Of a stretch of 64,000 nt of DNA, positions 1-57,374 are shown piece after piece. Each line of letters begins with the position of its first letter. The stretch's first letter is position 1. Position numbers and translations under genes: made by a program. The DNA is from a virus: positions 100,604-164,603 of the IMG/VR virus record IMGVR_UViG_3300022752_000019. One strand, written 5' to 3'. The notes below the pieces were generated by a model. The model did not search any database. It saw nothing but the letters and a program-made list of their open reading frames with translations, and was not told the DNA's origin.

Positions 1-492
1 TAGGAACACGCCGGTGCTTCTCTGCCAGTGGATGAATCCAAAAAGCACTCCTTGGAAGTTAGTATCGTCGAGGTACGCAGATGGCCCGGCGGCGGGTACG
101 GTAGGCACTGCGAAACGGATTTCGCACCCCACTGGGGCGCTGGCCGTAACCTCGCCGTGCAGAAACAAGGTGTTTGAGGACTTCGAAGTGGTCGGGCTCT
201 CGATGGCGAGCACAGGCTCTACGCTTGAAGTAGCCGTGAACTCCAGGTTCGCGCGCGCAGAGGTCGAGGTGACTGGCAGTGAGTCACTGAACACGTCGAA
301 CACGAACGGATACGCCAGCGGAAGTTCATCCGCCGTCGTTGCGTCGAACTCCAGACGGGAAAACGTCACGAATGCGTTGACCGTATCTGGATCGACCCGG
401 TGATCGTTGTCCCTGACCCCGAAGTAGATAGGAGATGAGGGTGAAAATAGAGAGTCACCCTCCGCTGGAGTCAGGTTCACGGTCTTAGGCAT
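1..492 (-). CDS. Structural protein downstream of baseplate J (5' part only; runs off the window)
   Basis: ATG at 492 overlaps the stop of the 1782-aa gene. It reads MPKTVNLTPAEGDSLFSPSSPIYFGVRD... toward the window edge. Confidence 0.65.
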   Translation of the reverse strand, partial: MPKTVNLTPAEGDSLFSPSSPIYFGVRDNDHRVDPDTVNAFVTFSRLEFDATTADELPLAYPFVFDVFSDSLPVTSTSARANLEFTATSSVEPVLAIESPTTSKSSNTLFLHGEVTASAPVGCEIRFAVPTVPAAGPSAYLDDTNFQGVLFGFIHWQRSTGVFL

Positions 493-3400
493 TGGCAGAC
501 CTCGCGCGGATCAAGATGCGCTCCTGTCCCGTGCCGGGCTCTACTGTGACGGGGGCGCCCGGAATGTAGAAGGTCGTCCTGTGCGTTCCGTTGAACGTCC
601 CCTCTTCCAGCCCGATTGCGTCAGTCGAGCGTGTCAGAACTCGGCGCCGATCGAGGTCGTGCGTGATGATCTGAAGGATGATGGGATGCCGATACGACGT
701 CACGTTGTTCGAGTGAAGGAACTTCTCGATCTTCGAGACATCCAACACCTCGTCTGGCTCGAGGCTGTTGATGTAGTTGGCAATCTCGGCTGCCATCTTC
801 GTCCGGTTGCCCCCACTCGCCTCAATGTCCAAGTAGACGAACGAGGGCAGGAAGTGCCGTGCCAGCGGATCGGCGCACAAGATTCGGTTCAGATTGGACG
901 TCAGCAACGCCTGGATCTGCCCAACCTCCGCTGAGTACTCGTGGCGAACAGTGAAGACCGCACCATTGAGGACGACTCTGTTCTCCGCGACGTCATTCAG
1001 ATCACTCGGGAGGAAGGATGCCGAGAAGTAGATCTTGCACTGTTCCGCTGCACTGTAGGTGTAGAAAGGATCGATGACCTCCATTCGGTAGCCATCGGAG
1101 TCGTAGGTGCCAAAGACCGGAGTAAGGTGGGCATCCTTCGGGATGTTGTAGACCGGCCTCCCGCCGAGGGAGTGTGCCCGGACATCCATGTAGAACAGCC
1201 CGCTTTCCGTGCCCTGTGTCCTCATGGTGGAGGAAGGCATGTGAACTGTGTGCGGGCGGACGATCTCGTACGGCTGCTTGACGCCACGCACGGGACCGTT
1301 GACCTCAAGCTCGCGCTGGCGCGCATACCCGACGTCAATGCTTCCGCCCTGGTAGATTGCGCGAACAGTTGAGGTCAGCCTGTCCGTCGACGGGTGAACA
1401 GTGGCGATTCTCCACACGGAAGGTACTCCGCTGTAGATTCGAACCGGCCGAACTCCAAGAAGCTCCGTCGTACCTCCGATGCCGGAGTTATCAAGGTCGT
1501 CTACTGGAGCCTTGACCACGCTCCAATGAACTCCGGTCTCATCGGACGCAAAGTTGTCTCGATCCAGCGTTACCGTGCTCCCATCGGGAGACACCGCGGT
1601 GATCTGATAGCTGCCGTCTACCTCCTCAAAGTTAGACAGGTAGATGGTCAAATACCGGCCTACGTCCTGAGAACTAAACGGGTTGTTTAGGTCTACGAGG
1701 CCCGGCGAGCCCGCCTCTACAGAGCCCTCGTTTCCACTCTTGTAGATTTGAGCGGTAGACGCCGGCATCGGGCGGTCGACATTGACGTAGTCGTCCCCCA
1801 CTTCCGTGATTCGGTAGCCTCCTGCGCCGTCTCCCTCCTCGATGAAGAGGTAATCACCCGGACGCACAACATCCTGGTCATTTTCCGAACTCGGAGAGAG
1901 GAACGTAAACTCGCGTGACCCGTAGTTTAGACGGGGAATCCGAAGCGTAGAAGAGTTGGCCTGTGTCGTGACTACTGCAACGCGGTCGGTTTCCTTTTCT
2001 CCACTCGAGCCTGTCAGAGTCAATAGAGTGCGCTGTTCATAGATGTGCAGGAAGTCCGAACCTGGCTGGACCCCGGCAGCCAGGAAGGACGACAAGAGCG
2101 CATCAGAGGGAGTCACGTCGAACGCGTCAACGCCCGCCGTGTGCTCACTCAGCGTAATGTCCCGAGGAAGCTCTGTCGGTGGCGTCCTTCCAGTGCGAGT
2201 TGCACCTGGGAAGACCTGTCTTGGCGGCTCAGTGCCCGCTGCGACGAACAACAGCTCCTCCGCTCCCGCAGGAACCGAGAACAGGGTCGGTGCATGCGGA
2301 TGGTACACGCCCCGCGTAAGCTCGTCGTTCTCAGTCCACTGGTAATCCACACACGAGCTTGGCCCGTAAACCGTAACAGAGGTTGGCTCGGTGAAGTAGA
2401 GACGGACAATCTGTTCGGCGGTCGGCCTTGCGACAACATAGTTGTCAAAGAAGCCATCGACAATTTTCTTGAGCACCGACCCCGGGTTCACGATGAACTC
2501 AGAGGGCATGTCGTAGCCAGCCGAGGCGAGAGTCTGGAACAGCCAGGTAAAGGACTCCTGCACCAGTTCCCACGGGTTGACTGCATCCCCTGCGCGCGGT
2601 CCAGTCGCAATCGAGGCCGTGACGTTGAAAGATGGCGGGTAGAGCGAGAGCGCGGGTGCCGTGCGGGGAACAAACCCGGACAGTCCCTCGTAGGGATTGA
2701 CTGGGAACTCGTTTTTGATCTTCACGATCGCAAACGTGTAGGCAAGGCGATCGTCGAGGTAGTCTTCGGAGCCACCGGAGACGATACACCCTCCGTGGTA
2801 CACCTTGTATGTGTAGACCTTGTCGATGACGTAAGAGCCGGCGTTGGCCCCCTCGTCAATCGTGAGAATGTCCCCAGGCTTGGCGCGAGACAGCGCGGCT
2901 GGCGTATTGGGGAGATTACCGTTGTTGTAGAGGCTCATCGCCTCCTCGAACGTCACCTCGTTTGAGAAGATCGCCTTCCAGTCGATTTCCGGGGCTGCGA
3001 TGAAGATGTTGTTGCAGCCATCGAACAGTGCCTTTGGAATCAGCACTTCGTACTGAGCAAGGATCGTCCATCCCGAGAAGTGATCATCGAGGTCCTTCAT
3101 GGTGAAGGGGGCAAACAAGTCAAAGAACGCGCGGAAGTCGTCCCCCAGCGAAAAGGAGGTCGTAAGCTCTACGAGCCATCCTCGAATGGTATCGAGGAAG
3201 CCCTGCACCGCACTGGGCAGCGCGATGCTTAGGTTGGTCTGCACGGAGTGACCAGTGGTCACGGCCGGGTCAGACAGGAGTGTCATTACCGCCACGTAGT
3301 CATCGTCCGTGGGCAGACACTCGTCGGTGTAGCAGGTGCCTGGCCTGCCCGAGTACTGAGTGATGGACACCAGGTCTGCTGCCTTGATGGTGCCATCCGG

Positions 3401-5833
3401 AGAGCGAGAGCCCGTCCCACTCTTTGCGCCGGTCACTGAGTCAACGTCGTATGCACGCAGCCGCACATGCTCTGTTGGTGCCCACTCGAACCCTGCGTCC
3501 GGGAACACGAAGCCATTCATCCCGCGCTGAGTCTCACGAGCCCCTGAGAAGCCGTCAACTGCGCGCGCGCCAACCGGAAGTGACGGAGGTACGGAATAGC
3601 CAGTGGACTGCCCCGAGGCGGTCTGGACAACCATTCCTCCGGGCGCGACTCGTACCAGCGGCCGACTGAGGCCTGTTCCTGCTGCGTAGACTCGGAAGGA
3701 GACATTCGAATCTGTCGCAGGCAGCGCCGTCTCTAAGACAGGGCCCCTGCCGCCGAGCGTAGAGTCAAAGCCAGCAATCCGATATTCTCCGACGTTAGGG
3801 CCATCGAGAATCTCAAGAACGCTACCGACGGACGCGCCGTAGCTAATGAGGTCCACATCTGTTCGAACTGTAGACGTGCCAATGACGGTCCGTAGATCCG
3901 AAGCAGTAGCACCAGCAAAAGGATAGATGGGAGCCTTTGGAGCAAACGCATCGAGCACGACCTCGTTGATGATGCGGAACCGATAGTCTCCCCCAAGCAC
4001 CGTCATCGCGGTGTCCAGGACAAGCTCGGGCCCTCGCACGTCCATGATCTTGTAGGAACCGACATCTGGACCGTTGACCACACTGAGGGTCATGCCCCGC
4101 TGGATGCCGTAGTCCTCCCAGCGTGTCTGCTCGACGCCTACAATAGTGGCAGTTGCTCCCGAAGTGAGCCCGATGACATACCCCGGGGCCGCCCACTCGT
4201 TGTCTGAGGTGAGGGCCACGAGGTCAATGTAGTTCTCCGTGCTGGAGATCTGAACTGCATACGAAAGACCGCCGGTGTCGAGCTCTGGCGTGCTTCCATC
4301 CGAAGAGAAGTGGATCACTTCTCCCAGCGCAAACAGCCCCACGACGCTTGCCAGCCGCAGCCGCAGTCGTGCGTGAACTTTGTTTGCGGAGGCTTGGTAG
4401 TCACGCAGCTCGCTTACGATTTCTGCATCTGAAACCGTGAAAAGGTCAGTGCCTTCATAGACGCTGACCTCTCCCGAGGCGGCCCCAAAGTTGGCGACCG
4501 CAATCGAGGTCCGCGAGGGGCGTACATACACGTCGTAATGGCCGCCAATGTGGACCTGATCGTCACGAAGGACGATCTCATCACCCTCATCGGGATTGGT
4601 GATCCCACCAGGGATGCCGGAGATACGAATCTCCGCACGATCGTAAGCAGCCGCAAAGACCCCAGGAAGTAACCCTGGGATCAGAGAGCCGGGAGGCGCT
4701 TCAACATCGGGGGACTGATTGAGTCGCAGCAAGTAGACCGTCGGGATGCCCTCGAGGTCCTCTGAGCTTTCGTAGAGGACCTCCTCCACGACAAACCGCT
4801 GGTTCTCCCGAACCGCGCCGTATAGGAACTTCCAGAAGTTCAGGTCGATCTGACCCCCTGCACGGATTCTTCTACGACCGTCCCTGCCCTTGTTCTCGAA
4901 CATCGAGAGGAGGATCATGTAGCGGCCGAGGATCAGGCTCATGCCAGAGCAGATGACATCTCCGCCTCCGGCACCCGTGATCTTGTCGCGCTGCATTTCG
5001 GCGTCGCCAAAACCCACGACCTCGAGGTTCCGAACGTTTGGGAACTCCGAGAAGATCCGGGCCCGAATACCCCTGCGCGTGTTTAGGCTGCGCTCGGTGA
5101 GTGCGGTCTGGGTACGTGCCAGCAGTTCGGTGGCCGACTCATCGTCACCGCCGCCTCCGAACTCGAACTGATTCGTGACGCGCACGGCCGCTTCGATGCC
5201 GGCAACTGTGTTGACGGCCCCGGCCGGCACGTTGTACGCAGCTCCGGGTGACTCGGCGATGACCGCGATGTCCACGTAGTACAGGTGACCGCTGCGCTGC
5301 GCTGCCACAATTTCCGGTCTGAAAAATTGAGGCACCGTAGGGAAGAAGCCAAGTCCTCCCGCGCTGAAACGGGTTCCTACCAGAACTGAAACAAAGGTCG
5401 GGTTGCCGAAGAAGATGCGGACCGTCCCTGTCGCCCGGGAACCAGCGTTACGGGACACGAAGAAGTTTGCGGCCAGGTCTTCGGCGTCTTGGATGCGCAT
5501 CTGAGATGCGTTTCTCGTGGACTGCCCAGTTCTGATGATCTGAATCTCGCGCTTGAACCCCTCCAGTAGAAGCTGAAGCGGGCGGATGACGATGTCGACA
5601 ATCGCGTCTCCGTCCTGCACCGACAGGGTCGGGAACTCCTGCTTTAGTCGCGTCTTGAGAAACTCCTCGATGTCCGTATCGAAGGGATCCACTGACAAGG
5701 CACGGAACACAGGCGCGACAACCTGCTCATACAGAGAACTTCCCTGTGCGAGGTCAAATGTCGGATCGAACGCCTCGAGCCTCTCGACAAGAAGATCTCG
5801 AATCTGAGCGGCCTGAGAGGTCGTGTTTGCCAT
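485..5833 (-). CDS. Large baseplate J-like wedge protein
   Basis: N-terminal baseplate-J features (ATGTVRIFF, IAESPGAAYNVP, VTNQFEFGGGGDDES..ELLAR). Repeated GD.L.I.EG...G.Y.I beta modules. Confidence 0.85.
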   Translation of the reverse strand: MANTTSQAAQIRDLLVERLEAFDPTFDLAQGSSLYEQVVAPVFRALSVDPFDTDIEEFLKTRLKQEFPTLSVQDGDAIVDIVIRPLQLLLEGFKREIQIIRTGQSTRNASQMRIQDAEDLAANFFVSRNAGSRATGTVRIFFGNPTFVSVLVGTRFSAGGLGFFPTVPQFFRPEIVAAQRSGHLYYVDIAVIAESPGAAYNVPAGAVNTVAGIEAAVRVTNQFEFGGGGDDESATELLARTQTALTERSLNTRRGIRARIFSEFPNVRNLEVVGFGDAEMQRDKITGAGGGDVICSGMSLILGRYMILLSMFENKGRDGRRRIRAGGQIDLNFWKFLYGAVRENQRFVVEEVLYESSEDLEGIPTVYLLRLNQSPDVEAPPGSLIPGLLPGVFAAAYDRAEIRISGIPGGITNPDEGDEIVLRDDQVHIGGHYDVYVRPSRTSIAVANFGAASGEVSVYEGTDLFTVSDAEIVSELRDYQASANKVHARLRLRLASVVGLFALGEVIHFSSDGSTPELDTGGLSYAVQISSTENYIDLVALTSDNEWAAPGYVIGLTSGATATIVGVEQTRWEDYGIQRGMTLSVVNGPDVGSYKIMDVRGPELVLDTAMTVLGGDYRFRIINEVVLDAFAPKAPIYPFAGATASDLRTVIGTSTVRTDVDLISYGASVGSVLEILDGPNVGEYRIAGFDSTLGGRGPVLETALPATDSNVSFRVYAAGTGLSRPLVRVAPGGMVVQTASGQSTGYSVPPSLPVGARAVDGFSGARETQRGMNGFVFPDAGFEWAPTEHVRLRAYDVDSVTGAKSGTGSRSPDGTIKAADLVSITQYSGRPGTCYTDECLPTDDDYVAVMTLLSDPAVTTGHSVQTNLSIALPSAVQGFLDTIRGWLVELTTSFSLGDDFRAFFDLFAPFTMKDLDDHFSGWTILAQYEVLIPKALFDGCNNIFIAAPEIDWKAIFSNEVTFEEAMSLYNNGNLPNTPAALSRAKPGDILTIDEGANAGSYVIDKVYTYKVYHGGCIVSGGSEDYLDDRLAYTFAIVKIKNEFPVNPYEGLSGFVPRTAPALSLYPPSFNVTASIATGPRAGDAVNPWELVQESFTWLFQTLASAGYDMPSEFIVNPGSVLKKIVDGFFDNYVVARPTAEQIVRLYFTEPTSVTVYGPSSCVDYQWTENDELTRGVYHPHAPTLFSVPAGAEELLFVAAGTEPPRQVFPGATRTGRTPPTELPRDITLSEHTAGVDAFDVTPSDALLSSFLAAGVQPGSDFLHIYEQRTLLTLTGSSGEKETDRVAVVTTQANSSTLRIPRLNYGSREFTFLSPSSENDQDVVRPGDYLFIEEGDGAGGYRITEVGDDYVNVDRPMPASTAQIYKSGNEGSVEAGSPGLVDLNNPFSSQDVGRYLTIYLSNFEEVDGSYQITAVSPDGSTVTLDRDNFASDETGVHWSVVKAPVDDLDNSGIGGTTELLGVRPVRIYSGVPSVWRIATVHPSTDRLTSTVRAIYQGGSIDVGYARQRELEVNGPVRGVKQPYEIVRPHTVHMPSSTMRTQGTESGLFYMDVRAHSLGGRPVYNIPKDAHLTPVFGTYDSDGYRMEVIDPFYTYSAAEQCKIYFSASFLPSDLNDVAENRVVLNGAVFTVRHEYSAEVGQIQALLTSNLNRILCADPLARHFLPSFVYLDIEASGGNRTKMAAEIANYINSLEPDEVLDVSKIEKFLHSNNVTSYRHPIILQIITHDLDRRRVLTRSTDAIGLEEGTFNGTHRTTFYIPGAPVTVEPGTGQERILIRARSANA

Positions 5834-12830: not shown

Positions 12831-13043
12831 TTACTGCTTACGGATCTGGTTCTTCAACGTCTGGTACGTGCTGAAGAACCTACACTCTTCAGTGGACGGC
12901 CACTTTGATTCGGCCTGGTCCAGTTCCTCTGGTGTGATGCTAAACACCCAGAACACGCGCCGACCTTCACGCTTCACAGACACGATGGAGTGCCCACGAG
13001 AGACGAGGTACGAGGCAAATGCCATGTCCTGGGTTTCAAACAT
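12831..13043 (-). CDS. DUF5659-like small protein
   Basis: FETQDMAFASYL...G pattern. Confidence 0.55.
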   Translation of the reverse strand: MFETQDMAFASYLVSRGHSIVSVKREGRRVFWVFSITPEELDQAESKWPSTEECRFFSTYQTLKNQIRKQ

Positions 13044-13282
13044 TAGGAGAGGGCCGAGGAGAGAGTCGGAAAGAACTCGGAGATAAACTCTTCCGAGTGG
13101 AGACGAGACAACTCTACCGCACGGCGCCGTAGTTGTCTACTTCCCGTCCTGCCTTCGTACGCTATTAGTAGAAGTTCTTTTTCCTTTAAAAGTCTCTCCT
13201 CCTCAATGCGTAACAACTCTAACACATCACTGGCGATCGCATCAATCCGCAGAGAAAACTCCCCCGTCGTCTCGGTCGCCAT
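13043..13282 (-). CDS. Hypothetical protein
   Basis: Translationally coupled to the sigma gene. Confidence 0.55.
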   Translation of the reverse strand: MATETTGEFSLRIDAIASDVLELLRIEEERLLKEKELLLIAYEGRTGSRQLRRRAVELSRLHSEEFISEFFPTLSSALS

Positions 13283-14115
13283 CAGAAGTTTTCCTCATAC
13301 GCTTTGTACTTGTCCGCGATCTTCTTCTTGACCTGGGACACCTTAGAGTCACTCCACCCGAGGGAGCGTGCAATTTCGCCGGTCGAGGAGGTCTGCTTCT
13401 TACCGCTTAGTCCGAAGAGGTAGCTGAAGACCTGCTGCTCCTCCGTGGTCAGCTCGTACGGCAACATCTCGACAATCTCACGATGGACGGGAGACATTTC
13501 CGTAAACGGGTTGAGGTCCATCCCTCCTTCTTCGCCACCGGAGGGGATCACGAAGATGTCCGGGCGCATCTCGAGCTTGAGGCGCTCCACCTTCTTTACG
13601 CCGATCTTCATCCGGTCTGCAATCTCGAGGCTCGTCGGAGGACGCCCAAGCTCCTCGGTGAGTGAGTCCTGCGTCCGCTGAAGCTCTCCAATCTTGTGTG
13701 CCTGTGCCTCGACGATGCGCGTAAAGTTCTGATGCTTCTTCACGAAGCGGTTGAGCCCGCGCAAGTTTGTCGTCACATGGGTCGTGATCTGCGCCCCGCG
13801 CGACGGGTCGTACTTCTTAAGCGCCTTGACTGTCAGCGCGCGAGCCTCGGCTTCGATGGCAGGTCGATACATGCGCGGAGGCGCATGGCGGTTGACCTGC
13901 GCAGTGATCACCGGATTCAACGAGTTCAAGAGGGGCTGGAGCTTCTCTGGGTTCTCGTTGGAGACCTTCCACTGCCTCCAGAGGTCAAGCTCGGTCGCAG
14001 CCTTTCCGGTGTAAGGCACGGCCTTGCCGGAGGGATCTTTCTGCTCCCAGGTTTCCGGGAACTGAAAGGGATCCTTCTCTGCCAGCTTCTCAAGCCTTTC
14101 CCGGAGAGTTCTCAT
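13282..14115 (-). CDS. RNA polymerase sigma-70-family factor (FliA/SigB/SigF-like)
   Basis: Region 2 KALKKYDPSRGAQITTH, region 3 EELGRPPTSLEIADRM, region 4 HTH LTTEEQQVF...EIARSLGWSDSKVSQ. Confidence 0.9.
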   Translation of the reverse strand: MRTLRERLEKLAEKDPFQFPETWEQKDPSGKAVPYTGKAATELDLWRQWKVSNENPEKLQPLLNSLNPVITAQVNRHAPPRMYRPAIEAEARALTVKALKKYDPSRGAQITTHVTTNLRGLNRFVKKHQNFTRIVEAQAHKIGELQRTQDSLTEELGRPPTSLEIADRMKIGVKKVERLKLEMRPDIFVIPSGGEEGGMDLNPFTEMSPVHREIVEMLPYELTTEEQQVFSYLFGLSGKKQTSSTGEIARSLGWSDSKVSQVKKKIADKYKAYEENF

Positions 14116-14357
14116 CGAGACTCGACGGCCCTCTTTAGCAGCTTCGACGCTTGTTCGGCTGACACGCCAAGACGCACATTTCTGCCGTAGTGTTCCTTGT
14201 TCGTGAACAAAGAAGCAAGTTGACGGTACGCGCGTTCTGCCAGAACGTCGCGCGACTTAAACAGGTCGTCTAAGAGAAGATTGGTGTCGCGGAGGTTGAG
14301 GGTTTCCGCAGCAGACGAAAGTTGCGCCTCTGGTCTGCGCTGAAAGAGGTCACTCAT
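14112..14357 (-). CDS. Hypothetical protein
   Basis: Coupled ORF. Confidence 0.6.
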   Translation of the reverse strand: MSDLFQRRPEAQLSSAAETLNLRDTNLLLDDLFKSRDVLAERAYRQLASLFTNKEHYGRNVRLGVSAEQASKLLKRAVESR

Positions 14358-14590
14358 CAGTGGGATCCTTTCATGGCTGCGAGCTGGTGAGCGGTTTGCA
14401 GGTCTCGTAGCTGACGGCTATTCCTACCTTCTTTTAGATCTCGTAGCGAGCCTCCCGCATACATCCCTCCTCCGAGAAGACCGATAGAAGCAAGGCCGCC
14501 GAGAGCCTTTTGATCTGGAGTAAGAGACGCAATGGACGCCATCTTGTCAAGTTCTGCAAAAAAGCCTTGAAACACAGCCCGACTGATCAT
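14357..14590 (-). CDS. Small protein with F..EL.K.A leader
   Basis: MISRAVFQGFFAELDKMAS followed by a Gly-rich hydrophobic helix. Confidence 0.7.
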   Translation of the reverse strand: MISRAVFQGFFAELDKMASIASLTPDQKALGGLASIGLLGGGMYAGGSLRDLKEGRNSRQLRDLQTAHQLAAMKGSH

Positions 14591-14592: not shown

Positions 14593-17500
14593 CTACCCTC
14601 TCTTACCGATTCCGGTGATTGAAGTTACCCCTAACGCGCTGTTTCCGTCAATGGCAGAGACGTAGTCTTTGACCCTTTTTGCGCGCTCAGCACGCGGGTC
14701 AAGTCTGGTAGCCTCCTGCTTGTCGATTGTAAACGGATCTTGGCCCCCGGAGTGCCCAGTGTGCCTAAGCCCGGCATCCAAGATGTCCAGGAACTCAAGT
14801 TCTGTCCCGTAGTCGCTACGGCCGAAGTTTACCGCGTTGGAGTGGAAGCCTCCATAGTACTTTGCATCCGCAGGCAACGGCGAGGGCGGCGGAGGCTCGA
14901 CGTTTACGACTGCTTTTTTTGTAGTGTCATACCTGACCCGTTTCGAGCCGAGGACCTCGGAGAACGTCGCAACATCTCTGCGCGTATACTCGTAGATCCA
15001 CTCAAGCGGATCGGGCGCGATCTCTCCAGAAGACCCAGAGTCCACGCGAGCTACCTGCTTTGCGTAGGTGATGCAGAGCTGATCTACGGCCTCTTCCACG
15101 CTGTTTACTGAGAACTTGGAGTTCTGCACGTCATCGACGATCGCGCGCGTACCGAAGAACGGGTCGTAGATCTCACTCGAAATCCGCTCGGCCCCGTACG
15201 CATCCGACATCCAAATCGGACGCAGTGACTCCTCGACTGGTAAAATCTTCTCTGGATCGACTTGGCCGCCAAGGTCCGCCTCGAACTGCGAACCGGGCAG
15301 GATTAGCGGCATGTAACTAATAACATATTGTCCACTGTTATAGAAAAACCGTGTAAGCACGATGTCCGTCTCAGAATCCAGCGGTCCGAGATCGAACTCA
15401 GTTGGAAGCGCCGTGCTGATCGAGATCTCAGTGTTGTCTGTGTCCTCTACGCCGTCACTGGTATCTTGCGCCTCGACTGCCGTTCGGACCCATACAAGCG
15501 TTGGAGTTCCCGTCCACGACCCGGACTTGACGTCCTTGCCTCGGTAACGAACACTCTTAAACGTGGTGACGCTTGTCTCAGCCTCATCGCTGCTTGCATC
15601 GTAGGAGGCTCCCACTGCGGGAAGGCTGGTTGGGTCAATGACCTGCTTTGGAGTAGCGCCATACTGGACCTCGAACAGCTGCGCGTCGTTCAGAAGATCC
15701 TCGATCTTAGACCGCTTAAATGAAGCAGCGATCGCCGCCCAACCGAAGTCGAAATCTTTCCCACTTTCGGCTACGGTCCTCTTTTGACCCATCGGAATGA
15801 AAATCCCTTCACCACCAAGCTGTTGATCCGCTCGAGACGGGTCTTGGATCTCAAGGGTTCCTTCACGGTTAATCAGCGTCGAGAACAGGTCGTCGGTCTT
15901 GTCTCCCGTGCGATGTGACCGAACATGTGTCAGTCGAACCTGGGTCTGCGACCCCGCCTGAGAGATAGAATGAGTGACGGCCTGAACCATTCCCAGCTTA
16001 AAGCTTCGGTTTAGACGAAAGTCAGGGTTGCCTGCCTCCTCGGAGGTAATTACCGCGTCGATGACTACTCCTGGAAAGCCGCAGATGATGTGAGGGCTAA
16101 ATGCAAGTGACACCGACGCCTGACGAGCCTGATACCGCTCATTCAGAAGATGGAAGTGCGCAATCTTGGGGGCGTAAAGGGCAAGCTCTCCAGTCTCGTC
16201 CGTCTCAGTCGTCGATGCTCCGGAGTCCTTGTTGATGTAGAACATCGTATCGAGCATGCGCTCAAACTTCGGCACGACTCCGCTGAACTTCTCGTGGTCG
16301 TAGATGATGATCTCGGCCGCACTGTTGAGGCCTTGGCTTTCGAGCGAAGCACGCCCGTTGATCTGCGGAGCGAAGATGGTGTTGCTGACTGCGGCGCTGT
16401 TCTCCGCAAACTCAAATCCGACGTTTAGAGACAGTCGCGAGGTTTCGCGCATCATCTCTCTTTGCGCTGTAAATGCTTGGATCATGTCGGGAAACATGAC
16501 ATTGCTGCGCGGAGGGGACACGAACCACACGTCAGGACGTAGAACAAACGAGTGCAGGCGCTCACGCGGACTCGTCGGACCAGAATCCAGCCTTACATCC
16601 TCAACGGTAGTCGGCGTAACCCCCGGGATGTCTGCGTACTGCACATGAACTGGATCGTTGCCGATTCCAAGGATGGAGTCGAAAAGGGGGTCAATTTTTT
16701 GACCACGGCCAATCTTAAGGAGCACATGAAGCAGAGGGGTCTTGGCCCCGCTTAAGATAGCACCGAATGTCCTCCAGTCCTCTGCAAGGATGAGATCCGA
16801 AGTCAGCAATTCTTGGCTGCTAGAGTAGATCGTGGCGTAGATATCCGGATAGGCAACAATCCGTGCACGGAGCTGTGCAACGTCGGTCACGGAGACGTCT
16901 CTCAGGCTCAGTCGATAAAGGGCGTTTCTGAGCCTCAGATACCAACTTCCTTGACCGTCAACACGCTCCAAGCCCTTCCCCGGTGCGTGCGTCTTATAAG
17001 GCATTCTCACGTTACCCAGCGCAGGAGCGTCTACCGGGCCCAGGATCTTTGCTTTCGTGACCTTGTCTTGGTCCAGGTATCTAAAGCGAATATCGATAGC
17101 AAGGCCTCGCTCGTGCGCCGTGAGTGTCTCGTCCCCAGGCGCGTTCTCTCTGTACGCAGACGTGATGTAGACCTCTGCCGGACCTCCCTTCAGAACTCCA
17201 CGTCGAAGAGTGTCATCTACTATCTTAAGGAACGGAGTTACCTCGTCTACGAACTTCTTTGAGAGGGACAACGTATTCGCGCGTCCTGACGCCGCAAATT
17301 CGCTGAAGGTTGCGTCCTGTGACGTCTCTGCCAGTGGGATCGAGAACTCGGGTACGTCCCGATTTGGGTACGTTGGCTTAGTAAGGCTGACTCCTGGGAC
17401 ATACTTTGCCACAGGGTTCGGCACCATCGCGTACATGATGTAGTTCAGGACAATGTCTACGACCCGCCTGAAGGAGATGACGCTTCCCTCAGAGCCAATC

Positions 17501-18222
17501 TTGTTCCTGAGCCAGTCGGAGAACTGCACTGCATCGAAGATCTTCGCGGCAGTTTCTCCGGAGTCAGCTACGAGCGTCTCCAGCAGGCGTACTTGCCGCT
17601 CATGGACAGTCGTCCACTGATTGACTCCGTAGGTGTGGCCCTGAACGCCCACCAGTCTTTCGATAATCGCAAGTAGACCTCCCAACACACTCGAGCTGAC
17701 GGGGCTGGCGGAACTTGTAGGTCCGAGCTGAGAAAGCTGCCGAATCATCTCGGAGGGCGAGTTGATGATGTTGTCAAACTCAGAGTCCAGCGTTGCAAGG
17801 AACCTCGAGCTGTTTGCTAAGATTGGATTATTTTGGTCATCGCTGGTAGTGAAATTCATGCTGTAGATGTAAGAGGTATCGAGGACGTTCGAGAAATCCA
17901 TGCAGTTGAGGGTTACGGACCGCGACCCCATTCCAACTTTGCTCTGAGAAATGCTGAATACTTCGCCGCAAAACAGCAACCTGTAGTCGCTGTTGTCTGG
18001 GCTACTCTTTCCGCTGTTCTTGAATTTGATGTGGTCAAGGTAGAAGAGGTGGACAATCGTTCTTGGGAGGATCAGGTCTACCGTGTCGTGTGGGACGATG
18101 TCGATGCTTGCGGTCGCGGCCGTACCTACCGCAGCACTGACCGAGGCTCCGATCACGGGAACTTGGATCCCTTCGAGGTAGAGCCGCAGGTCAAGGAGGT
18201 AGCCAGGCGCAGACTGCATCAT
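14593..18222 (-). CDS. Baseplate hub-like protein with inserted M15 peptidase domain
   Basis: Hub-like N-terminus (LRLYLEGIQVPV; LLFCGEV). ITSAYR...HERGLAIDI...DPVHVQ is a LAS peptidase motif. Confidence 0.75.
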   Translation of the reverse strand: MMQSAPGYLLDLRLYLEGIQVPVIGASVSAAVGTAATASIDIVPHDTVDLILPRTIVHLFYLDHIKFKNSGKSSPDNSDYRLLFCGEVFSISQSKVGMGSRSVTLNCMDFSNVLDTSYIYSMNFTTSDDQNNPILANSSRFLATLDSEFDNIINSPSEMIRQLSQLGPTSSASPVSSSVLGGLLAIIERLVGVQGHTYGVNQWTTVHERQVRLLETLVADSGETAAKIFDAVQFSDWLRNKIGSEGSVISFRRVVDIVLNYIMYAMVPNPVAKYVPGVSLTKPTYPNRDVPEFSIPLAETSQDATFSEFAASGRANTLSLSKKFVDEVTPFLKIVDDTLRRGVLKGGPAEVYITSAYRENAPGDETLTAHERGLAIDIRFRYLDQDKVTKAKILGPVDAPALGNVRMPYKTHAPGKGLERVDGQGSWYLRLRNALYRLSLRDVSVTDVAQLRARIVAYPDIYATIYSSSQELLTSDLILAEDWRTFGAILSGAKTPLLHVLLKIGRGQKIDPLFDSILGIGNDPVHVQYADIPGVTPTTVEDVRLDSGPTSPRERLHSFVLRPDVWFVSPPRSNVMFPDMIQAFTAQREMMRETSRLSLNVGFEFAENSAAVSNTIFAPQINGRASLESQGLNSAAEIIIYDHEKFSGVVPKFERMLDTMFYINKDSGASTTETDETGELALYAPKIAHFHLLNERYQARQASVSLAFSPHIICGFPGVVIDAVITSEEAGNPDFRLNRSFKLGMVQAVTHSISQAGSQTQVRLTHVRSHRTGDKTDDLFSTLINREGTLEIQDPSRADQQLGGEGIFIPMGQKRTVAESGKDFDFGWAAIAASFKRSKIEDLLNDAQLFEVQYGATPKQVIDPTSLPAVGASYDASSDEAETSVTTFKSVRYRGKDVKSGSWTGTPTLVWVRTAVEAQDTSDGVEDTDNTEISISTALPTEFDLGPLDSETDIVLTRFFYNSGQYVISYMPLILPGSQFEADLGGQVDPEKILPVEESLRPIWMSDAYGAERISSEIYDPFFGTRAIVDDVQNSKFSVNSVEEAVDQLCITYAKQVARVDSGSSGEIAPDPLEWIYEYTRRDVATFSEVLGSKRVRYDTTKKAVVNVEPPPPSPLPADAKYYGGFHSNAVNFGRSDYGTELEFLDILDAGLRHTGHSGGQDPFTIDKQEATRLDPRAERAKRVKDYVSAIDGNSALGVTSITGIGKRG

Positions 18223-23100: not shown

Positions 23101-23148
23101 TGAGCCCAAGGTGGGCTGCATCTGCTGCATTCCCGGGTTGGTGTACAT
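20128..23148 (-). CDS. Tape measure protein (putative)
   Basis: 1006 aa, helical and Gly/Ala/Met-rich, with hydrophobic N-terminal segments; upstream of hub and baseplate genes. Confidence 0.75.
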   Translation of the reverse strand: MYTNPGMQQMQPTLGSSHYPPSFSYAQDTPHAQHRGGAYMGNSLVSGGIGAVHGMAEAGQAGVMGAGLINLGSRLLGAPILTSGWIGTAADSGLMMGMVGGYAGLGLMGASAVAGLAASGVQQANQVGAMFGNMQFANASGDPRTGRGFSQRDLMTLQRGISAIGANNPFVSMSDALRATERFTEMGMHQGIQDAEKLAKRVTQLGKTMHEMARKLGTSMEEAGNIFRDMRGSGFYTAQDVMGNTASMTLMRGFGMSSDQFAAMQRAGAGMTRSAQMSGLGGARTMTAMTEQFMGAIKSGAMSPEQMIDITGAGTPLEAAQMLAQQTLSGTMQGLSGGLGTAMLLAAGQVDESGRFTGDVDRGILESMSAGVMTRDQMSRIAGGKRNTREGQASFVARRQDIMSSMLETGEGQDALLGMIKSLTEQQHGAGAGENEDLFQLVAETQLNMDRRTVRNLQKLRDTRKQRMDALVQEMRVNDRAAELKEQRTLGGTYTKITGTLEDAKKTLTKPFSEGYRDIVGGLQDVERVMLGGGNDVIAGASSKAMQDAIISGLRGADTLNVKLGVGDAARLSAVSGDFGALRNALPSMTDETRARAAASGVDIANRVARLREGGGALTEREMDRLANDLKLGRFRQGETYRTYDKDQLFALIAEQGGEAGLKLVTEANVGRTEGAEGSAKDIKQLQLDAKRAMYGDSLFAGFTDADMFGARNAFLGGVSLLAFDTDNEEAVSRLAEGGEASGLLKLYSDNQKDIDKELSGLVTDDEFEAAAKRINSKYGLNVSGRDLKDMNTMLKGRTGKGAADRAATGVSKEITEAISKAAGAIDSKVSTAKRQEKLQGLVTAAAAQGLTVEGNQQGIRSAIEQLAKQDFSAGSTASEGERVLGFGVQVYKQLEQAEKGGLTLAEAKQATGLDEETLTRVLASSGAVTEGGQIKTTDQAGLRSALAGVVTEGIGMSGKAEQFLNGGMSEMERQSLSIYKTAEMVDSLYTKLKADNVIKIENPEE

Positions 23149-23175
23149 AAAAAACCCCTGGTTTTAGGTCATAAT
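23148..23175 (+). promoter_or_regulatory. Phage promoter motif TAAA-N16-GTCATAAT
   Basis: Matches a motif repeated at least 17 times in the window. Confidence 0.7.
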
Positions 23176-23187
23176 ATAGGTAAGGAG

Positions 23188-23538
23188 GTGCCTATGTTTT
23201 TGGCTCTTATTGCGTTCGCAGTGGCAAACGTTACCGCAACCACCGCCGCCAAAGTCCGCGAGGACGAGGCGGAGAAGAACGAGCGGCGGGCCTTTGCCGC
23301 CGCCTTGAAGGAGGCGACTGTCCTCCTTCAGGGGGAGAAGGTCAGCCCCTGGGCGGAAAGGGGCTACGAAGACAACGGTGCTCGATCGGTCGTTCTCCAC
23401 GGGGTGGAGTTTTTCTTCACGCCCGCGGAGGTCTCGTGGCTGGAAACGGCCACGAGCGGGGGCACTGATTTCAGTGCTCCCGAAGTTGCCCATCTGTTGG
23501 GCAAAGGCCTGCTGCGGGCCCACGCAAAGCCGCAGTAG
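23188..23538 (+). CDS. Hypothetical protein (single-gene cassette)
   Basis: Strong RBS AAGGAGG, own promoter, UUCG hairpin at 23543-23564. Confidence 0.7.
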   Translation: MPMFLALIAFAVANVTATTAAKVREDEAEKNERRAFAAALKEATVLLQGEKVSPWAERGYEDNGARSVVLHGVEFFFTPAEVSWLETATSGGTDFSAPEVAHLLGKGLLRAHAKPQ

Positions 23539-23576
23539 TAGAGCGGGGCCCTTCGGGGCCCCGCCTCTCAGCGCGG

Positions 23577-23771
23577 TCACGTTAGCTGACATGGACCGCG
23601 CTCTTTCTCATTCGAGAGCGTGAACTTACCCGTCTCTTTAGCTACCAGAAAAGACTTGATGATAGATCGCTCAAACCGCGCCAGCGGCTCAGCTCCCTGA
23701 GACTGAAACCACTTGTCGAACGCCTCGATTTCTCGATCCGTACGATCTAAAAGTTCTTTCTTTGTGGTCAT
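23577..23771 (-). CDS. Small hypothetical protein (64 aa)
   Basis: MTTKKELLDRTDREIEAFDKWF...; GGAG RBS; converges on the hairpin at 23543. Confidence 0.55.
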   Translation of the reverse strand: MTTKKELLDRTDREIEAFDKWFQSQGAEPLARFERSIIKSFLVAKETGKFTLSNEKERGPCQLT

Positions 23772-23789
23772 AACTTCTCCGGAGGTCAC

Positions 23790-39705: not shown

Positions 39706-39779
39706 TGGGGCGTCGACTAACGGCAAGTCACCGTGCTTTGAACTCGGCCATCAAGGTTCGAATCCTTGCGCCCCAACCA
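39706..39779 (+). tRNA. tRNA-Gln(UUG)
   Basis: Cloverleaf, anticodon TTG, GTTCGAATC T-loop, CCA end. Confidence 0.88.
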
Positions 39780-39826
39780 CTGTTCTTTGAAATTTAAGTA
39801 AAAACCTGACATAAGAACTACGGTGG

Positions 39827-39903
39827 CTCCTCGTAGCTCAGCTGGATAGAGCATCGGATTCCTAATCCGAAGGTCACAGGTTCGAATCCTGTCGAGGAGG
39901 CCA
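39827..39903 (+). tRNA. tRNA-Arg(CCU)
   Basis: TCGGA-TTCCTAA-TCCGA anticodon arm, CCA end. Confidence 0.93.
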
Positions 39904-39908
39904 TTTTT

Positions 39909-39984
39909 TCCGGCATAGCTCAGTTGGTAGAGCAACGGACTGTTAATCCGTGGGTCACTGGTTCGAGTCCAGTTGCCGGAGCCA
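39909..39984 (+). tRNA. tRNA-Asn(GUU)
   Basis: ACGGA-CTGTTAA-TCCGT, CCA end. Confidence 0.95.
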
Positions 39985-39987
39985 TTC

Positions 39988-40247
39988 ATGACGTTCCCCG
40001 CAGAGGGCCGGTCGTCCTCCCGCCGCTGATGCGGACTGTTAGCCGTCCCTGTAGACGCTAAATGGCAGCGGAAGACCCAATCCGACAACAACGAAGTCCG
40101 AATCGCCTTTCCTCGGTCACGGAGAGGCTACTTGTTGCACCGTGAGTACACAAAAAACGGCGCCGCCCCCAGCGAACTGATGCAAGGGCCCTTGCATCTA
40201 TGGGAGGGCTGACCACCCTGGCCGCCTGGAAACGGCTAAACGGTCAT
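39988..40247 (+). ncRNA. Putative structured ncRNA between tRNAs
   Basis: Nested end-to-end pairings and internal hairpins; no credible ORF. Confidence 0.5.
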
Positions 40248-40250
40248 CAT

Positions 40251-40898: not shown

Positions 40899-40920
40899 TC
40901 TTGTACAATGACTTGCGGAG

Positions 40921-46408: not shown

Positions 46409-46560
46409 GTTCCCTCCAGGAACAAGAAGAAACACCGGGATTGGCTTTCCTCTAACTCTATTATGACCCGAACTGTGTTCTTTTTCACAAGTTAATTTTT
46501 TAGTCACGACCACGGGGAGGGGCCCGAAGGCCCCTCCCCCAAGCGCAGTCGGTCTCCAGA

Positions 46561-46644: not shown

Positions 46645-46741
46645 TTTGAACACTCCAACACCAGGCTGCCGCACGGGTGTGCAGCACAGTTATTTTCCTG
46701 GCTTATGTATATTATGACGTTTTTTACTGGATTTTTACGAC

Positions 46742-50515: not shown

Positions 50516-50646
50516 AGGCATCCGGCAGTGGATCGCCGCACGATGCGTCGGTCCACTCTTTTAACTTGTGTTAGAAAAATTAACAAAAATACGTCATAAT
50601 AGTAGTAGCAGGGAAACCTAACTCTTTCCCCCTGCTCGGAGCTCAC

Positions 50647-51849: not shown

Positions 51850-52025
51850 AGATACTCCCGTTGGCTGAATATACTCAACCGCCCCGCCCTCCACAAGGGG
51901 GCGGGGCGCTGTTCTCTCTTCTCTTAGGACCCCTTCCTATCATTCTAAATAGAGTTTGAGTTTAGGTCATAATAATAGTAAGCAGAGGAAAAAACCACTC
52001 ATTCCCCTCTGCGATGGAGGCTGCC

Positions 52026-52436: not shown

Positions 52437-52614
52437 AGGTAGAGGGGGCGGGCCTTCGGGCCCGCCCCCGTGTGTGCTAAAAATTAGATTGTTTTAGGTC
52501 ATAATAATACTAAGCAGAGGGAAATCTAAACTCTTTCCTTTCTGTTCTCATCGGCATCGCAGGTGTGCGCCCACCTGTGTTGGACCATCCACTTCTCAGG
52601 CGCAGGGAGTTCAC

Positions 52615-52944: not shown

Positions 52945-53019
52945 CGGGATGAGGGGGTGGGCCTTCGGGCCCGCCCCCTGCTGTGTTTAAAATTAGCTTG
53001 TTTTAGGTCATAATAATTA

Positions 53020-53290: not shown

Positions 53291-53329
53291 AGCTGTTTCT
53301 AAAAAATACAGAATTTCTGTCATAAGGAG

Positions 53330-56881: not shown

Positions 56882-57027
56882 AGTCGTAAGGAGGGGCCCT
56901 TCGGGGCCCCTCCTTATCTGTGTGAAAATTAGCCCAAACTCGGTCATAATATAGTAGATGGAGAGAACGTAGCCGCGCGCAATGTCGCGTGTGGCCACGC
57001 AACCAACTCTCCTGTCCCGGAGGTCAC

Positions 57028-57264: not shown

Positions 57265-57374
57265 GAGGATAGCGGCGGGGCCCTTCGGGGCCTCGCCGCC
57301 GGTCGGTGCGGATCACTTCTTAGCTTGTCCTATCATACATCTTAAAAAACACAAGAAATCTGTCATAATATAGG

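What the first reader, a model, noticed from the sequence alone, without database searches (positions are those of the whole stretch)
13282..14115. Sigma factor in the virion operon with a K-x-A leader: possibly packaged to fire early promoters
Seen: the FliA/SigB-like sigma sits among baseplate and fibre genes and begins MRTLRERLE-KLA-E, like the cargo leaders. The early-type cassettes share [TG]AAA-N15/16-GTCATAA. Known: sigma28/FliA recognises TAAA-N15-GCCGATAA. Inference: the sigma is made late, packaged, processed and injected to redirect host RNA polymerase to early promoters. This would be an unusual alternative to a virion RNA polymerase.
Basis: inference. Interest (0 to 1): 0.8.

Follow-up and report, generated by a model that had tools for sequence, protein, structure and literature searches.

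The report
Virion-operon sigma factor of polymerase-carrying phage
An uncultured 165-kb phage encodes a real but divergent sigma factor inside its tail-gene operon, and this factor most likely partners the phage's own RNA polymerase (not the host's) and rides in the virus particle to switch on the first genes after infection.

Summary
The ORF at 13282-14115 (-) is a genuine, divergent sigma-70-family protein (sigma2-sigma3-sigma4, no region 1.1). It is translationally coupled to its neighbours inside a tail/baseplate operon. This position is conserved in five metagenomic relatives, Salmonella phage Arash and Vibrio phage D69.

The promoter-like motif is real: 11 copies in the window against about 0.02 expected. 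Related bipartite motifs, with the same box spacing in the three genomes aligned, occur in Arash, D69 and two metagenomic relatives. They lie almost only on the strand opposite to the structural, sigma and RNAP genes.

All eight sigma-bearing genomes checked have such an RNAP. A complex model places sigma region 2 on its clamp helices (0.65 against 0.00 for controls).

Published virion mass spectrometry of Arash found the sigma homologue, beta and beta'.

The N-terminal K-x-A tag has family-wide support: 52 of 150 family representatives carry K-x-A-[SAG] near the N-terminus, against 7 expected. This copy reads K-L-A-E, and cleavage is unmeasured.

Best reading: sigma is the specificity subunit of a virion-delivered phage holoenzyme, not a redirector of host RNAP. 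Earlier notes of this scan on the same genome reached similar readings for the RNAP and the promoter.

The parts
13282..14115 (-). Sigma-70-family gene, 277 aa (P0001)
14080..14115 (-). N-terminal tag, residues 1-12 (helix 4-13 in the model, ending K10-L-A12, followed by E13)
   Evidence: Family-wide K-x-A-[SAG] enrichment. This segment ranks 5th of 177 N-termini in the phage proteome scan.
13729..14004 (-). Sigma region 1.2/2-like helical domain (residues 38-129). Residues 54-63, 81-100 and 128-135 form the predicted interface with the RNAP clamp helices.
13570..13725 (-). Sigma region 3 (residues 131-182)
   Evidence: Pfam PF04539, 40.3 bits; model
13501..13560 (-). Low-confidence acidic/glycine linker (residues 186-205), in the position of region 3.2
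   Evidence: pLDDT below 50
13288..13491 (-). Sigma region 4 helix-turn-helix domain (residues 209-276)
   Evidence: Pfam PF04545, 21.2 bits, below cut-off; PDB alignments; model
14112..14357 (-). 81-aa ORF whose stop overlaps the sigma start (ATGA). Conserved next to sigma in 5 relatives. No family match.
14357..14590 (-). 77-aa ORF with an N-terminal FFAELDKMAS tag followed by a glycine-rich segment
13043..13282 (-). 79-aa ORF whose start overlaps the sigma stop (TGATG). Found next to sigma in 4 of 5 metagenomic relatives.
12831..13043 (-). 70-aa ORF conserved downstream of sigma (weak DUF5659 match)
14593..18222 (-). 1209-aa virion-module protein upstream of sigma. It holds the position of Arash gp8 (cell wall hydrolase, structural).
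485..5833 (-). 1782-aa protein with an N-terminal T4 gp6-like baseplate wedge domain, downstream in the same operon
   Evidence: PHROG 6, 4.4e-21; homologous to Arash gp13 region
23148..23175 (+). Promoter-type site TAAAAAA-N-GGTCATAAT, followed by a Shine-Dalgarno sequence, a 114-aa ORF (23194-23538) and a terminator
23748..23774 (+). Promoter-type site upstream of the DNA ligase gene (23790-25064)
46460..46486 (-). Promoter-type site (GAAAA ... GGTCATAAT)
46711..46737 (-). Promoter-type site
50574..50600 (+). Promoter-type site
51946..51973 (+). Promoter-type site upstream of the 2H-phosphoesterase-like ORF (52014-52436)
52478..52505 (+). Promoter-type site upstream of the DUF7296 ORF (52615-52944)
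52988..53014 (+). Promoter-type site
53300..53326 (+). Promoter-type site (GTCATAAG form)
56924..56950 (+). Promoter-type site
57343..57369 (+). Promoter-type site upstream of ORF 57385-57729

Best explanation
The gene encodes the promoter-specificity (sigma) subunit of the phage's own bacterial-type RNA polymerase. That polymerase is a single 2119-aa beta-beta' chain encoded about 35-41 kb upstream of the window, among head genes.

Proposed sequence of events:
1. Sigma and RNAP are both made with the virion proteins, from operons that lack the phage promoter motif.
2. Both are loaded into the particle. For sigma, loading probably uses a short N-terminal K-x-A tag of the kind carried by head and cargo proteins.
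3. Both enter the cell with the DNA.
4. There the holoenzyme starts transcription of the non-structural (early and replication) genes. It uses the lineage-specific bipartite promoter: an A-rich box, 13-16 nt, then G[GT][CT]ATAA[GT].

Shown here: sigma family and domain structure; conserved position in the tail operon; the promoter motif and its strand segregation; co-occurrence with the RNAP; family-wide N-terminal tag.

Shown in a relative by others: sigma, beta and beta' in virion preparations.

Inferred: that sigma binds the phage RNAP (a model only); that it reads this motif; packaging in this phage; cleavage at the tag; who transcribes the late genes.
For: (1) Sigma identity and three-domain model.

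(2) It is the only sigma-family gene detectable in the 164.6-kb record.

(3) The phage's own RNAP: the Rpb2_6 and Rpb1_2 domains lie in one 2119-aa frame at G000 59192-65551. It keeps NADFDGD and a clamp coiled-coil.

(4) Co-occurrence: 8 of 8 genomes with this sigma have an RNAP beta. It is fused (2108-2124 aa) in 6 genomes and split in Arash and D69.

(5) Complex model of sigma with RNAP residues 1045-1445:
- Score 0.65, best of 3 controls 0.00.
- That mark was reached by 58 of 80 solved complexes and 2 of 110 mismatched pairs.
- The three runs share at least 34% of contacts, and the partner's pLDDT is at least 67.
- The interface is sigma 54-63, 81-100 and 128-135 against RNAP 1205-1247, the equivalent of the beta' clamp helices.
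- Sigma with beta' is a textbook pair, so the pass shows likeness to solved holoenzymes. It does not show that this copy binds.

(6) Conserved synteny inside the tail module, from this phage to Arash gp8-gp9-gp10-gp11-gp13 and to D69, at only 28-32% sigma identity.

(7) The motif is real and lineage-wide:
- This genome has about 15 sites against 0.2 in shuffles.
- Arash has GGTATAAG, 41 sites, 40 of them on one strand.
- D69 has GTTATAAG, 19 sites, 18 on one strand.
- G001 and G003 have G[GT][CT]ATAAG, 6 sites each, all on one strand.
- The A-rich box sits at the same distance from the core in the three genomes aligned: this one, Arash and D69.
- In all 5 genomes, sigma, the RNAP and the structural genes lie on the opposite strand.

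(8) The base at the position equivalent to sigma-70's -7 T is G in 30 of 39 Arash sites and 18 of 20 D69 sites. This argues against host sigma-70 reading these sites.

(9) The genes behind the motif are non-structural: DNA ligase, MazG-like, 2H-phosphoesterase-like, SLT.

(10) Arash virion mass spectrometry (PMC10585845):
- gp10 sigma: 100% coverage, 24 unique peptides, 467 spectra.
- beta: 128 unique peptides.
- beta': 40 unique peptides.
- By my arithmetic with lengths, gp10 has about 10 unique peptides per 100 aa. RNR alpha has 1.4 and dNMP kinase 2.5.

(11) N-terminal tag:
- 52 of 150 family representatives (clustered at 50% identity) have K-x-A-[SAG] starting in the first 25 residues. Shuffled N-termini give a mean of 7.4 (maximum 14), and internal control windows give 9 and 2.
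- A PSSM built from those tags picks 7 of 177 proteins of this phage at a score of 10 or more. All 7 lie on the structural strand. Sigma is among them at rank 5.
Against: - There is no transcript, binding, cleavage or virion measurement for this phage.
- The Arash preparation contained 116 of 272 proteins, including RNR, ligases and primase. Its authors themselves allow carry-over of abundant proteins.
- The Arash and D69 sigmas lack the whole N-terminal extension and tag. The tag therefore cannot be required for the virion signal seen in Arash.
- This copy has K-L-A-E. K-x-A-E occurs at background rate in the proteome, whereas the form enriched in head proteins is K-x-A-S.
- The RNAP has no such N-terminal tag.
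- GTCATAAT also resembles a sigma-70 -10 element with a G at -14, so reading by the host polymerase is not excluded in this phage.
- No factor or promoter for the late operons was identified.
- Co-occurrence within one lineage is not independent evidence.
- The record is only 89% complete, so a second sigma or a second RNAP could be missing.
Confidence: 0.5

Rival explanations
1. First reader's model. Sigma is packaged, cleaved at K-L-A and injected to redirect the HOST core RNA polymerase to the GTCATAA early promoters, in place of a virion RNA polymerase.
For: - All previously studied phage sigma-70-family factors act on host core RNAP (established knowledge: T4 gp55, SPO1 gp28).
- A survey of jumbo phages found sigma only in phages that lack an RNAP (PMC7824862).
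- The sigma orthologue was found in Arash virion preparations.
- The N-terminal tag is conserved across the family.
Against: - The phage and all 7 relatives checked encode their own bacterial-type RNAP.
- That RNAP keeps clamp helices, onto which sigma region 2 is modelled.
- Beta and beta' gave among the highest spectral counts in the Arash virion preparation (beta the highest).
- The promoter type stays the same across phages of Salmonella, Vibrio and unknown freshwater hosts.
- The host is unknown, so binding to host core could not be modelled.
Confidence: 0.1
2. Sigma is a late-gene factor. Host sigma-70 holoenzyme reads the A-box/G..ATAA promoters (early and middle genes). The phage RNAP with this sigma then transcribes the motif-less structural operons. 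The virion signal in Arash is carry-over.
For: - Sigma and RNAP sit in the structural operons.
- GTCATAAT and TGGTATAAG resemble extended -10 sigma-70 promoters.
- The Arash preparation held many non-structural enzymes.
- TATATT and TATACT boxes lie upstream of the tail operon and the RNAP gene.
Against: - There is a bootstrapping problem: sigma and RNAP would have to transcribe the very operons that encode them.
- G replaces the near-invariant -7 T in most Arash and D69 sites.
- The motif keeps conserved bases downstream of the -10-like box, which sigma-70 does not require.
- Sigma's unique-peptide density in Arash is far above that of the enzymes likely to be carry-over.
- The N-terminal tag shared with head proteins is left unexplained.
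Confidence: 0.2
3. Sigma is the general initiation factor of the phage RNAP and reads the motif, but neither protein is delivered in the virion. Host RNAP makes a first round of sigma and RNAP after entry. The N-terminal K-x-A segment is a conserved helix with another role, for example RNAP contact or autoinhibition like region 1.1.
For: - Sigma docks onto the phage RNAP in the model.
- The motif is lineage-wide.
- This copy's tag is K-L-A-E, a background type.
- The Arash and D69 sigmas have no tag.
- The RNAP has no tag.
Against: - Sigma and RNAP genes are always co-oriented with virion genes and never preceded by the motif.
- Arash mass spectrometry detected sigma, beta and beta' strongly.
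- The same tag pattern heads unrelated head-region proteins of this phage.
Confidence: 0.15

Closest known systems
Salmonella phage Arash gp10 (annotated 'RNA polymerase sigma factor RpoS'), with RNAP beta gp206 and beta' gp216 (OQ632216; PMC10585845); also Vibrio phages D69, D181 and D148
   Same: - It is an orthologue (28% identity, E 6e-18).
- It holds the same position between the giant tail-module protein and the gp6-like baseplate gene.
- Its genome also encodes a bacterial-type RNAP.
- It has the same promoter architecture on the opposite strand.
- It was detected in virion preparations.
   Different: - Arash and D69 sigmas are 229-234 aa and lack the first 40 or so residues, including the K-x-A tag.
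- Their RNAP is split into beta and beta' rather than fused.
- The promoter core is GGTATAAG or GTTATAAG rather than GTCATAA[GT].
- The paper only lists the protein. It gives no partner, promoter or mechanism.
Virion RNA polymerases of phiKZ-like and AR9-like jumbo phages, and N4 vRNAP
   Same: The strategy is the same: an RNAP made late, packaged, and injected to transcribe early genes independently of the host. This is established knowledge, reviewed in PMC7598289.
   Different: - Those enzymes have split, highly divergent beta and beta' pieces (phiKZ, AR9) or are single-subunit (N4).
- They use no sigma-70-family factor. No sigma is found in those RNAP-encoding jumbo phages (PMC7824862).
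- Here the enzyme is bacterial-type and comes with a canonical three-domain sigma.
Phage sigma factors that redirect host RNAP (T4 gp55/gp33, SPO1 gp28 and gp33/34)
   Same: They are phage-encoded sigma-70-family proteins that change promoter choice.
   Different: They act on host core RNAP and are not virion components, as far as I know. They are truncated (gp55) or unrelated in gene context. Here the phage brings its own core enzyme.
FliA / sigma-28 and B. subtilis SigD (group 3 sigma factors)
   Same: - The sigma2-sigma3-sigma4 architecture without region 1.1 is shared.
- The top Foldseek hit is a SigD model.
- The sigma-28 consensus TAAA-N15-GCCGATAA (established knowledge) shares the A-rich upstream box, the short spacer and the ...ATAA end with this motif.
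   Different: - The FliA_WhiG model scores 44.8 bits against a cut-off of 189.6, and RpoD-type models score as well or better.
- By PDB phmmer, FliA matches at only E 1e-3 while SigA matches at 6e-10.
- The resemblance of the promoters was recalled from memory, not tested.
T4 internal proteins and Alt: N-terminal capsid targeting sequence removed by the prohead protease gp21
   Same: A short N-terminal peptide of 8-26 residues ends in a small-residue motif that is shared with head proteins. It is found on an enzyme that would act right after DNA injection.
   Different: - The motif here is K-x-A-[SAG], not L/I-x-E.
- Neither targeting nor cleavage has been measured.
- This copy has E after the Ala.

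Membership tests
Sigma-70 family | Region 3 (Pfam PF04539) | tested here: met
   40.3 bits against a cut-off of 25.3, residues 141-181
Sigma-70 family | Region 4 helix-turn-helix (Pfam PF04545) | tested here: inconclusive
   21.2 bits against a cut-off of 24.1. PDB SigA alignments run to residue 269-274, and the model has helices 209-276.
Sigma-70 family | Region 2 (Pfam PF04542), with the core-binding helix and -10 recognition | tested here: inconclusive
   There is no PF04542 match. PDB sigma chains align from residue 44 or 89, and Foldseek covers 240-290 columns. By my reading of the alignment against remembered E. coli numbering, the aromatic residues corresponding to E. coli Y430 and W433 are replaced by H113 and T116.
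Sigma-70 family | Binds the beta' clamp helices through region 2.2 | tested here: inconclusive
   The complex model with the phage's own RNAP segment scored 0.65 against a best control of 0.00. The interface is sigma 81-100 against RNAP 1205-1247. This is a model of a textbook pair, not a measurement.
FliA/WhiG (sigma-28) subfamily | Score above the NCBIfam TIGR02479 cut-off | tested here: not met
   44.8 bits against 189.6
SigB/SigF/SigG subfamily | Score above the NCBIfam TIGR02980 cut-off | tested here: not met
   37.4 bits against 234.35
Virion-packaged RNA polymerase systems | Polymerase and its factor are physically present in purified virions | not testable with these tools
   Only a relative has data. 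Arash gp10, gp206 and gp216 were detected in sucrose-gradient virions (PMC10585845), in a preparation that also held many enzymes.
Virion-packaged RNA polymerase systems | Polymerase genes belong to the late/structural class, and early genes carry a distinct phage-specific promoter | tested here: met
   Sigma and RNAP are co-oriented with the structural genes and lack the motif. The motif lies on the opposite strand in 5 of 5 genomes. Timing itself is inferred.
Prohead-protease-processed head cargo (T4 CTS type) | N-terminal peptide ending in the lineage's presumed cleavage motif K-x-A-[SAG] | tested here: inconclusive
   At family level, 52 of 150 representatives carry it against 7.4 expected. 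This copy reads K-L-A-E, which is the background form, yet its segment ranks 5th of 177 in a PSSM scan.
Prohead-protease-processed head cargo (T4 CTS type) | Cleavage at the motif and location inside the head | not testable with these tools
   This needs N-terminal mapping by mass spectrometry of virions.

The most novel reading that the evidence does not exclude
A complete bacterial-type holoenzyme, made of a one-chain beta-beta' core plus a sigma-70-family factor, is preloaded in the virion of a large and widespread uncultured phage family. Sigma is addressed to the particle by the same K-x-A N-terminal tag that marks head cargo. The holoenzyme is injected to start host-independent transcription from a family-specific promoter. 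Sigma-dependent promoter recognition would then be used by a virus-borne polymerase, a combination not described for any phage.
Probability: 0.4. Interest if true: 0.8.

Novelty: new variant of a known kind. Interest (0 to 1): 0.65.

Why it matters
The two strategies described in the sources read here for phages taking over transcription are these: bring a sigma-like factor for the host polymerase, or bring a sigma-less polymerase of their own. This lineage appears to combine a cellular-type core with a cellular-type sigma, and probably ships both in the particle. The sigma family has 651 clusters at 50% identity with E up to 1e-30.

If that is right, three things follow:
- It gives a minimal two-protein bacterial-type transcription machine with a defined promoter.
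- It gives a way to predict early genes in hundreds of uncultured phage genomes.
- It offers a tractable test case, because Arash is cultured, for how large enzymes are addressed to virions and ejected from them.

Tried and rejected
- The exact reader motif, TAAA-N14-17-GTCATAA, gave 0 hits in Arash and D69 and few in the metagenomic relatives. The related motifs appeared only after de novo k-mer analysis of intergenic DNA.
- The search for related loci with the 18-sequence alignment failed because no conserved stretch was found. With the distant homologues P0046 and P0042 it found nothing.
Synteny in the most distant family members therefore could not be checked.
- The search for a late promoter was inconclusive. 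The regions upstream of the minus-strand operons share only TATATT or TATACT boxes that overlap the reverse complement of the early core at three divergent junctions.
- The enriched word TTAGCT turned out to be a terminator tail (hairpin followed by CTTTTAGCT), not a promoter.
- The small ORFs flanking sigma (77, 81, 79 and 70 aa) have no informative Pfam or PHROG match. I found no evidence for or against an anti-sigma role.
- I first judged the K-x-A leader to be a chance feature. I revised this after the family-wide test.
- I first placed the clamp helices before the VLPVLPP motif. The complex model and the E. coli order put them after it, at 1205-1247.
Full report
WHAT IS THERE

The window is the last 64 kb (100604-164603) of a 164.6-kb IMG/VR virus record that is estimated 89% complete.

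The ORF at 13282-14115 on the minus strand encodes 277 residues and begins MRTLRERLEKLAE. Its ATG overlaps the stop of an 81-aa ORF upstream (ATGA). Its stop overlaps the ATG of a 79-aa ORF downstream (TGATG). It is therefore embedded in a tightly packed minus-strand operon.

That operon holds large proteins with no family match (1006, 553 and 1209 aa), a coiled-coil protein with weak tail-protein matches, and proteins with Ig-like or prealbumin-like domains. It ends, within the window, with a 1782-aa protein whose N-terminus matches the T4 gp6-type baseplate wedge (PHROG 6, 4e-21).

IS IT A SIGMA FACTOR?

Yes.
- Pfam region 3 is above its cut-off, and region 4 is just below.
- PHROG 351 'RNA polymerase sigma factor' matches at 1e-11.
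- SigA and RpoS chains in the PDB align to residues 89-274, some from residue 44.
- An AlphaFold2 model built on 42 homologues has mean pLDDT 78.9. It shows an N-terminal helix (4-13), a small hairpin, a helical sigma2-like domain (38-129), sigma3 (131-182), a disordered acidic linker (186-205) and sigma4 (209-276).
- Foldseek returns only sigma chains. A B. subtilis SigD model comes first, followed by sigma-S and SigA.

The subfamily is open. FliA, SigB and RpoD models all score far below their cut-offs, and the RpoD-type models are marginally best. 'FliA/SigB-like' is therefore a description of size and architecture, not of membership.

It is the only sigma-family gene I can detect in the record.

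The same genome encodes a bacterial-type RNA polymerase. The beta and beta' domains lie in one 2119-aa frame at genome 59192-65551, on the minus strand and outside the window. The protein has the NADFDGD catalytic loop at residue 1402 and a coiled-coil in the position of the beta' clamp helices.

Five IMG/VR relatives carry this sigma at 57-72% identity. All of them have the same fused enzyme, 2108-2124 aa long.

The only cultured relatives are Salmonella phage Arash (sigma = gp10, 28% identity) and Vibrio phage D69 and its kin. They have a separate beta of about 1525-1546 aa.

So 8 of 8 sigma-bearing genomes have the polymerase. These genomes form one lineage, so this is consistency rather than independent proof.

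I sent one complex job: sigma against RNAP residues 1045-1445, both as alignments.
- The score was 0.65, and the best of 3 controls scored 0.00.
- That mark was reached by 58 of 80 solved complexes and 2 of 110 mismatched pairs.
- The three runs share at least 34% of contacts, and the partner's pLDDT is at least 67.
- The interface is sigma 54-63, 81-100 and 128-135 against RNAP 1205-1247, which is the canonical region 2 to clamp-helix contact.
- Sigma with beta' is a textbook pair. The pass shows that both partners keep the canonical surfaces. It does not show that they bind, and it does not exclude binding to host core.

POSITION IN THE GENOME

The gene order is: 1006 aa, 553 aa, 1209 aa, a small ORF, 81 aa, SIGMA, 79 aa, 70 aa, a variable block, then 221, 296, 447, 126 and 214 aa, and finally the gp6-like baseplate protein. 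This order is kept in the five metagenomic relatives.

Arash has the corresponding order: gp8 (cell wall hydrolase, structural), gp9, gp10 (sigma), gp11, gp12, gp13 (gp6-like). D69 has the same.

A sigma gene that stays inside the tail module while its sequence drifts to 28% identity is unusual. It points to co-expression with virion proteins.

THE PROMOTER MOTIF

It has 8 + 3 copies in the window against 0.00 and 0.02 in shuffles. GTCATAAT occurs 10 times against 0.56 expected.

The sites lie after terminator hairpins and 6-110 nt upstream of small plus-strand ORFs. The genes behind them include a DNA ligase, a MazG-like protein, a 2H-phosphoesterase-like protein and an SLT protein, so they are non-structural.

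The exact motif is absent from Arash and D69. De novo analysis, however, finds the same design in the relatives:
- Arash has TGGTATAAG-taaagTGTAa, 41 sites, 40 on one strand. About 9 per strand are expected from base composition.
- D69 has tGTTATAAG, 19 sites, 18 on one strand.
- G001 and G003 have G[GT][CT]ATAAG behind an A-tract, 6 sites each, all on one strand, with almost none (at most 0.15 on average) in shuffles.

When the sites are aligned on the core, the A-rich box sits at the same distance in all three genomes compared: this phage, Arash and D69.

In all five genomes the motif strand is the one opposite to sigma, the RNAP and the structural genes. No copy precedes sigma or the RNAP in this phage.

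The last core base occupies the place of sigma-70's nearly invariant -7 T. It is G in 30 of 39 Arash sites and 18 of 20 D69 sites. Because of this, and because the design stays constant across phages of Salmonella, Vibrio and unknown freshwater hosts, I attribute the motif to the phage's own sigma and RNAP rather than to host sigma-70. This attribution is an inference.

The likeness to the sigma-28 consensus (A-rich box, short spacer, ...ATAA) is genuine, but it is only a resemblance.

PACKAGING

Direct data exist only for Arash (PMC10585845). Its virions were purified on a sucrose gradient and pelleted.
- gp10: 100% coverage, 24 unique peptides, 467 spectra.
- beta gp206: 128 unique peptides, the highest spectral count of all proteins.
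- beta' gp216: 40 unique peptides.

Using gene lengths, gp10 has about 10 unique peptides per 100 residues. This is more than the clear structural proteins gp4, gp8 and gp13 (3.8-5.5) and far more than the enzymes likely to be carry-over (RNR alpha 1.4, dNMP kinase 2.5).

The preparation nevertheless held 116 of 272 proteins, and the authors allow for carry-over. The evidence is suggestive, not conclusive.

THE K-x-A LEADER

On its own the K-L-A at residues 10-12 means little.
- 7.5% of this phage's proteins have K-x-A in their first 18 residues.
- The form enriched in head and cargo proteins is K-x-A-S (23 of 60 against 8 of 163 elsewhere). K-x-A-E, as found here, occurs at background rate.

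A profile search of 1.84 billion representatives found 651 family clusters at E up to 1e-30. Among the 150 best representatives:
- The conserved core starts at the L-W-x-x-W-K helix.
- The N-terminal extensions vary from about 0 to 246 residues.
- K-x-A-[SAG] is nine times denser in the extensions than in the core.
- 52 of 150 have the motif starting within the first 25 residues. Shuffled N-termini give 7.4 (maximum 14), and internal control windows give 9 and 2.
- The usual form is hydrophobic/acidic, then K-x-A-A.

A PSSM built from these tags was scanned over the N-termini of this phage's 177 proteins. It singles out seven proteins at a score of 10 or more, all on the structural strand. They include head-region proteins, the 77-aa ORF two genes upstream of sigma (FFAELDKMAS) and sigma itself at rank 5.

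A short conserved N-terminal peptide, followed by a variable spacer and shared with unrelated head proteins, is what a capsid-targeting or protease signal looks like. T4 internal proteins are the model.

Three points count against it. This copy has E after the Ala. The Arash and D69 sigmas have no extension at all. The RNAP carries no such tag.

SYNTHESIS

The best-supported model is an N4-like or phiKZ-like strategy carried out with a cellular-type holoenzyme.
1. Sigma and the one-chain RNAP are late, virion-associated products.
2. They enter the cell with the DNA.
3. They fire the A-box/G..ATAA promoters of the non-structural genes.
4. The structural operons, which include the sigma and RNAP genes, use something else: host RNAP or another factor. 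I could not identify it.

LITERATURE

- The paper on the RNAP-encoding Caudovirales lineage does not mention sigma at all (PMC7481178). I did not test whether this phage belongs to that lineage.
- A jumbo-phage survey states that RNAP-encoding phages lack sigma and that sigma-encoding phages lack an RNAP (PMC7824862).
- Only the Arash paper lists the protein, without a mechanism.
- Earlier AI notes of this scan on other windows of the same genome reached the same reading for the RNAP and the promoter. I re-derived both independently before reading them.

Noticed in passing
window 39706-43859: There is a cluster of 14 tRNA genes plus a tmRNA gene (tag peptide ANNTNAFAPVALAA) on the plus strand.
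   Followed up: no
window 23164-23592: The longest ORF here (minus strand, 142 aa) is probably spurious. The plus strand carries a complete cassette: promoter 23148-23175, a Shine-Dalgarno sequence, a 114-aa ORF at 23194-23538 and a GC hairpin terminator.
   Followed up: partly
many sites, e.g. window 23575-23587, 45031, 53529, 57320, 57882: GC-rich terminator hairpins are followed by a conserved tail, CTTTTAGCT (often ...TTAGCTTGTCCTATCA). This tail accounts for the enriched word TTAGCT.
   Followed up: partly
window 23149-23200; genome 65552-65600 and 51188-51240: At three divergent junctions the reverse complement of the promoter core (TTATGAC) lies 9-25 nt upstream of the start codon of the minus-strand gene (tail operon, RNAP, a 1006-aa gene). 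At the first two junctions a TATATT or TATACT box directly precedes it. The early and late promoters may overlap there.
   Followed up: partly
window 14357-14590: A 77-aa ORF two genes upstream of sigma carries an N-terminal FFAELDKMAS tag followed by a glycine-rich, zipper-like segment.
   Followed up: partly
L001 (Arash) 11588-11595: The only plus-strand GGTATAAG among the 41 Arash sites lies between gp8 and gp9, about 300 nt upstream of the sigma gene gp10. It lacks the upstream A-rich box. It may be a chance match or an internal promoter for sigma.
   Followed up: no
protein family (P0049-P0196): The N-terminal extensions of this sigma family range from about 0 to 246 residues. Several contain repeated basic 'HTRR..G..V' segments between the tag and the core.
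   Followed up: no
genome 59192-65551 (outside the window; L039): The fused RNAP keeps a flap-tip-like helix (TEDIRRRLKGAI), and its beta' part begins without an obvious zinc ribbon. This is my reading of the translation.
   Followed up: no
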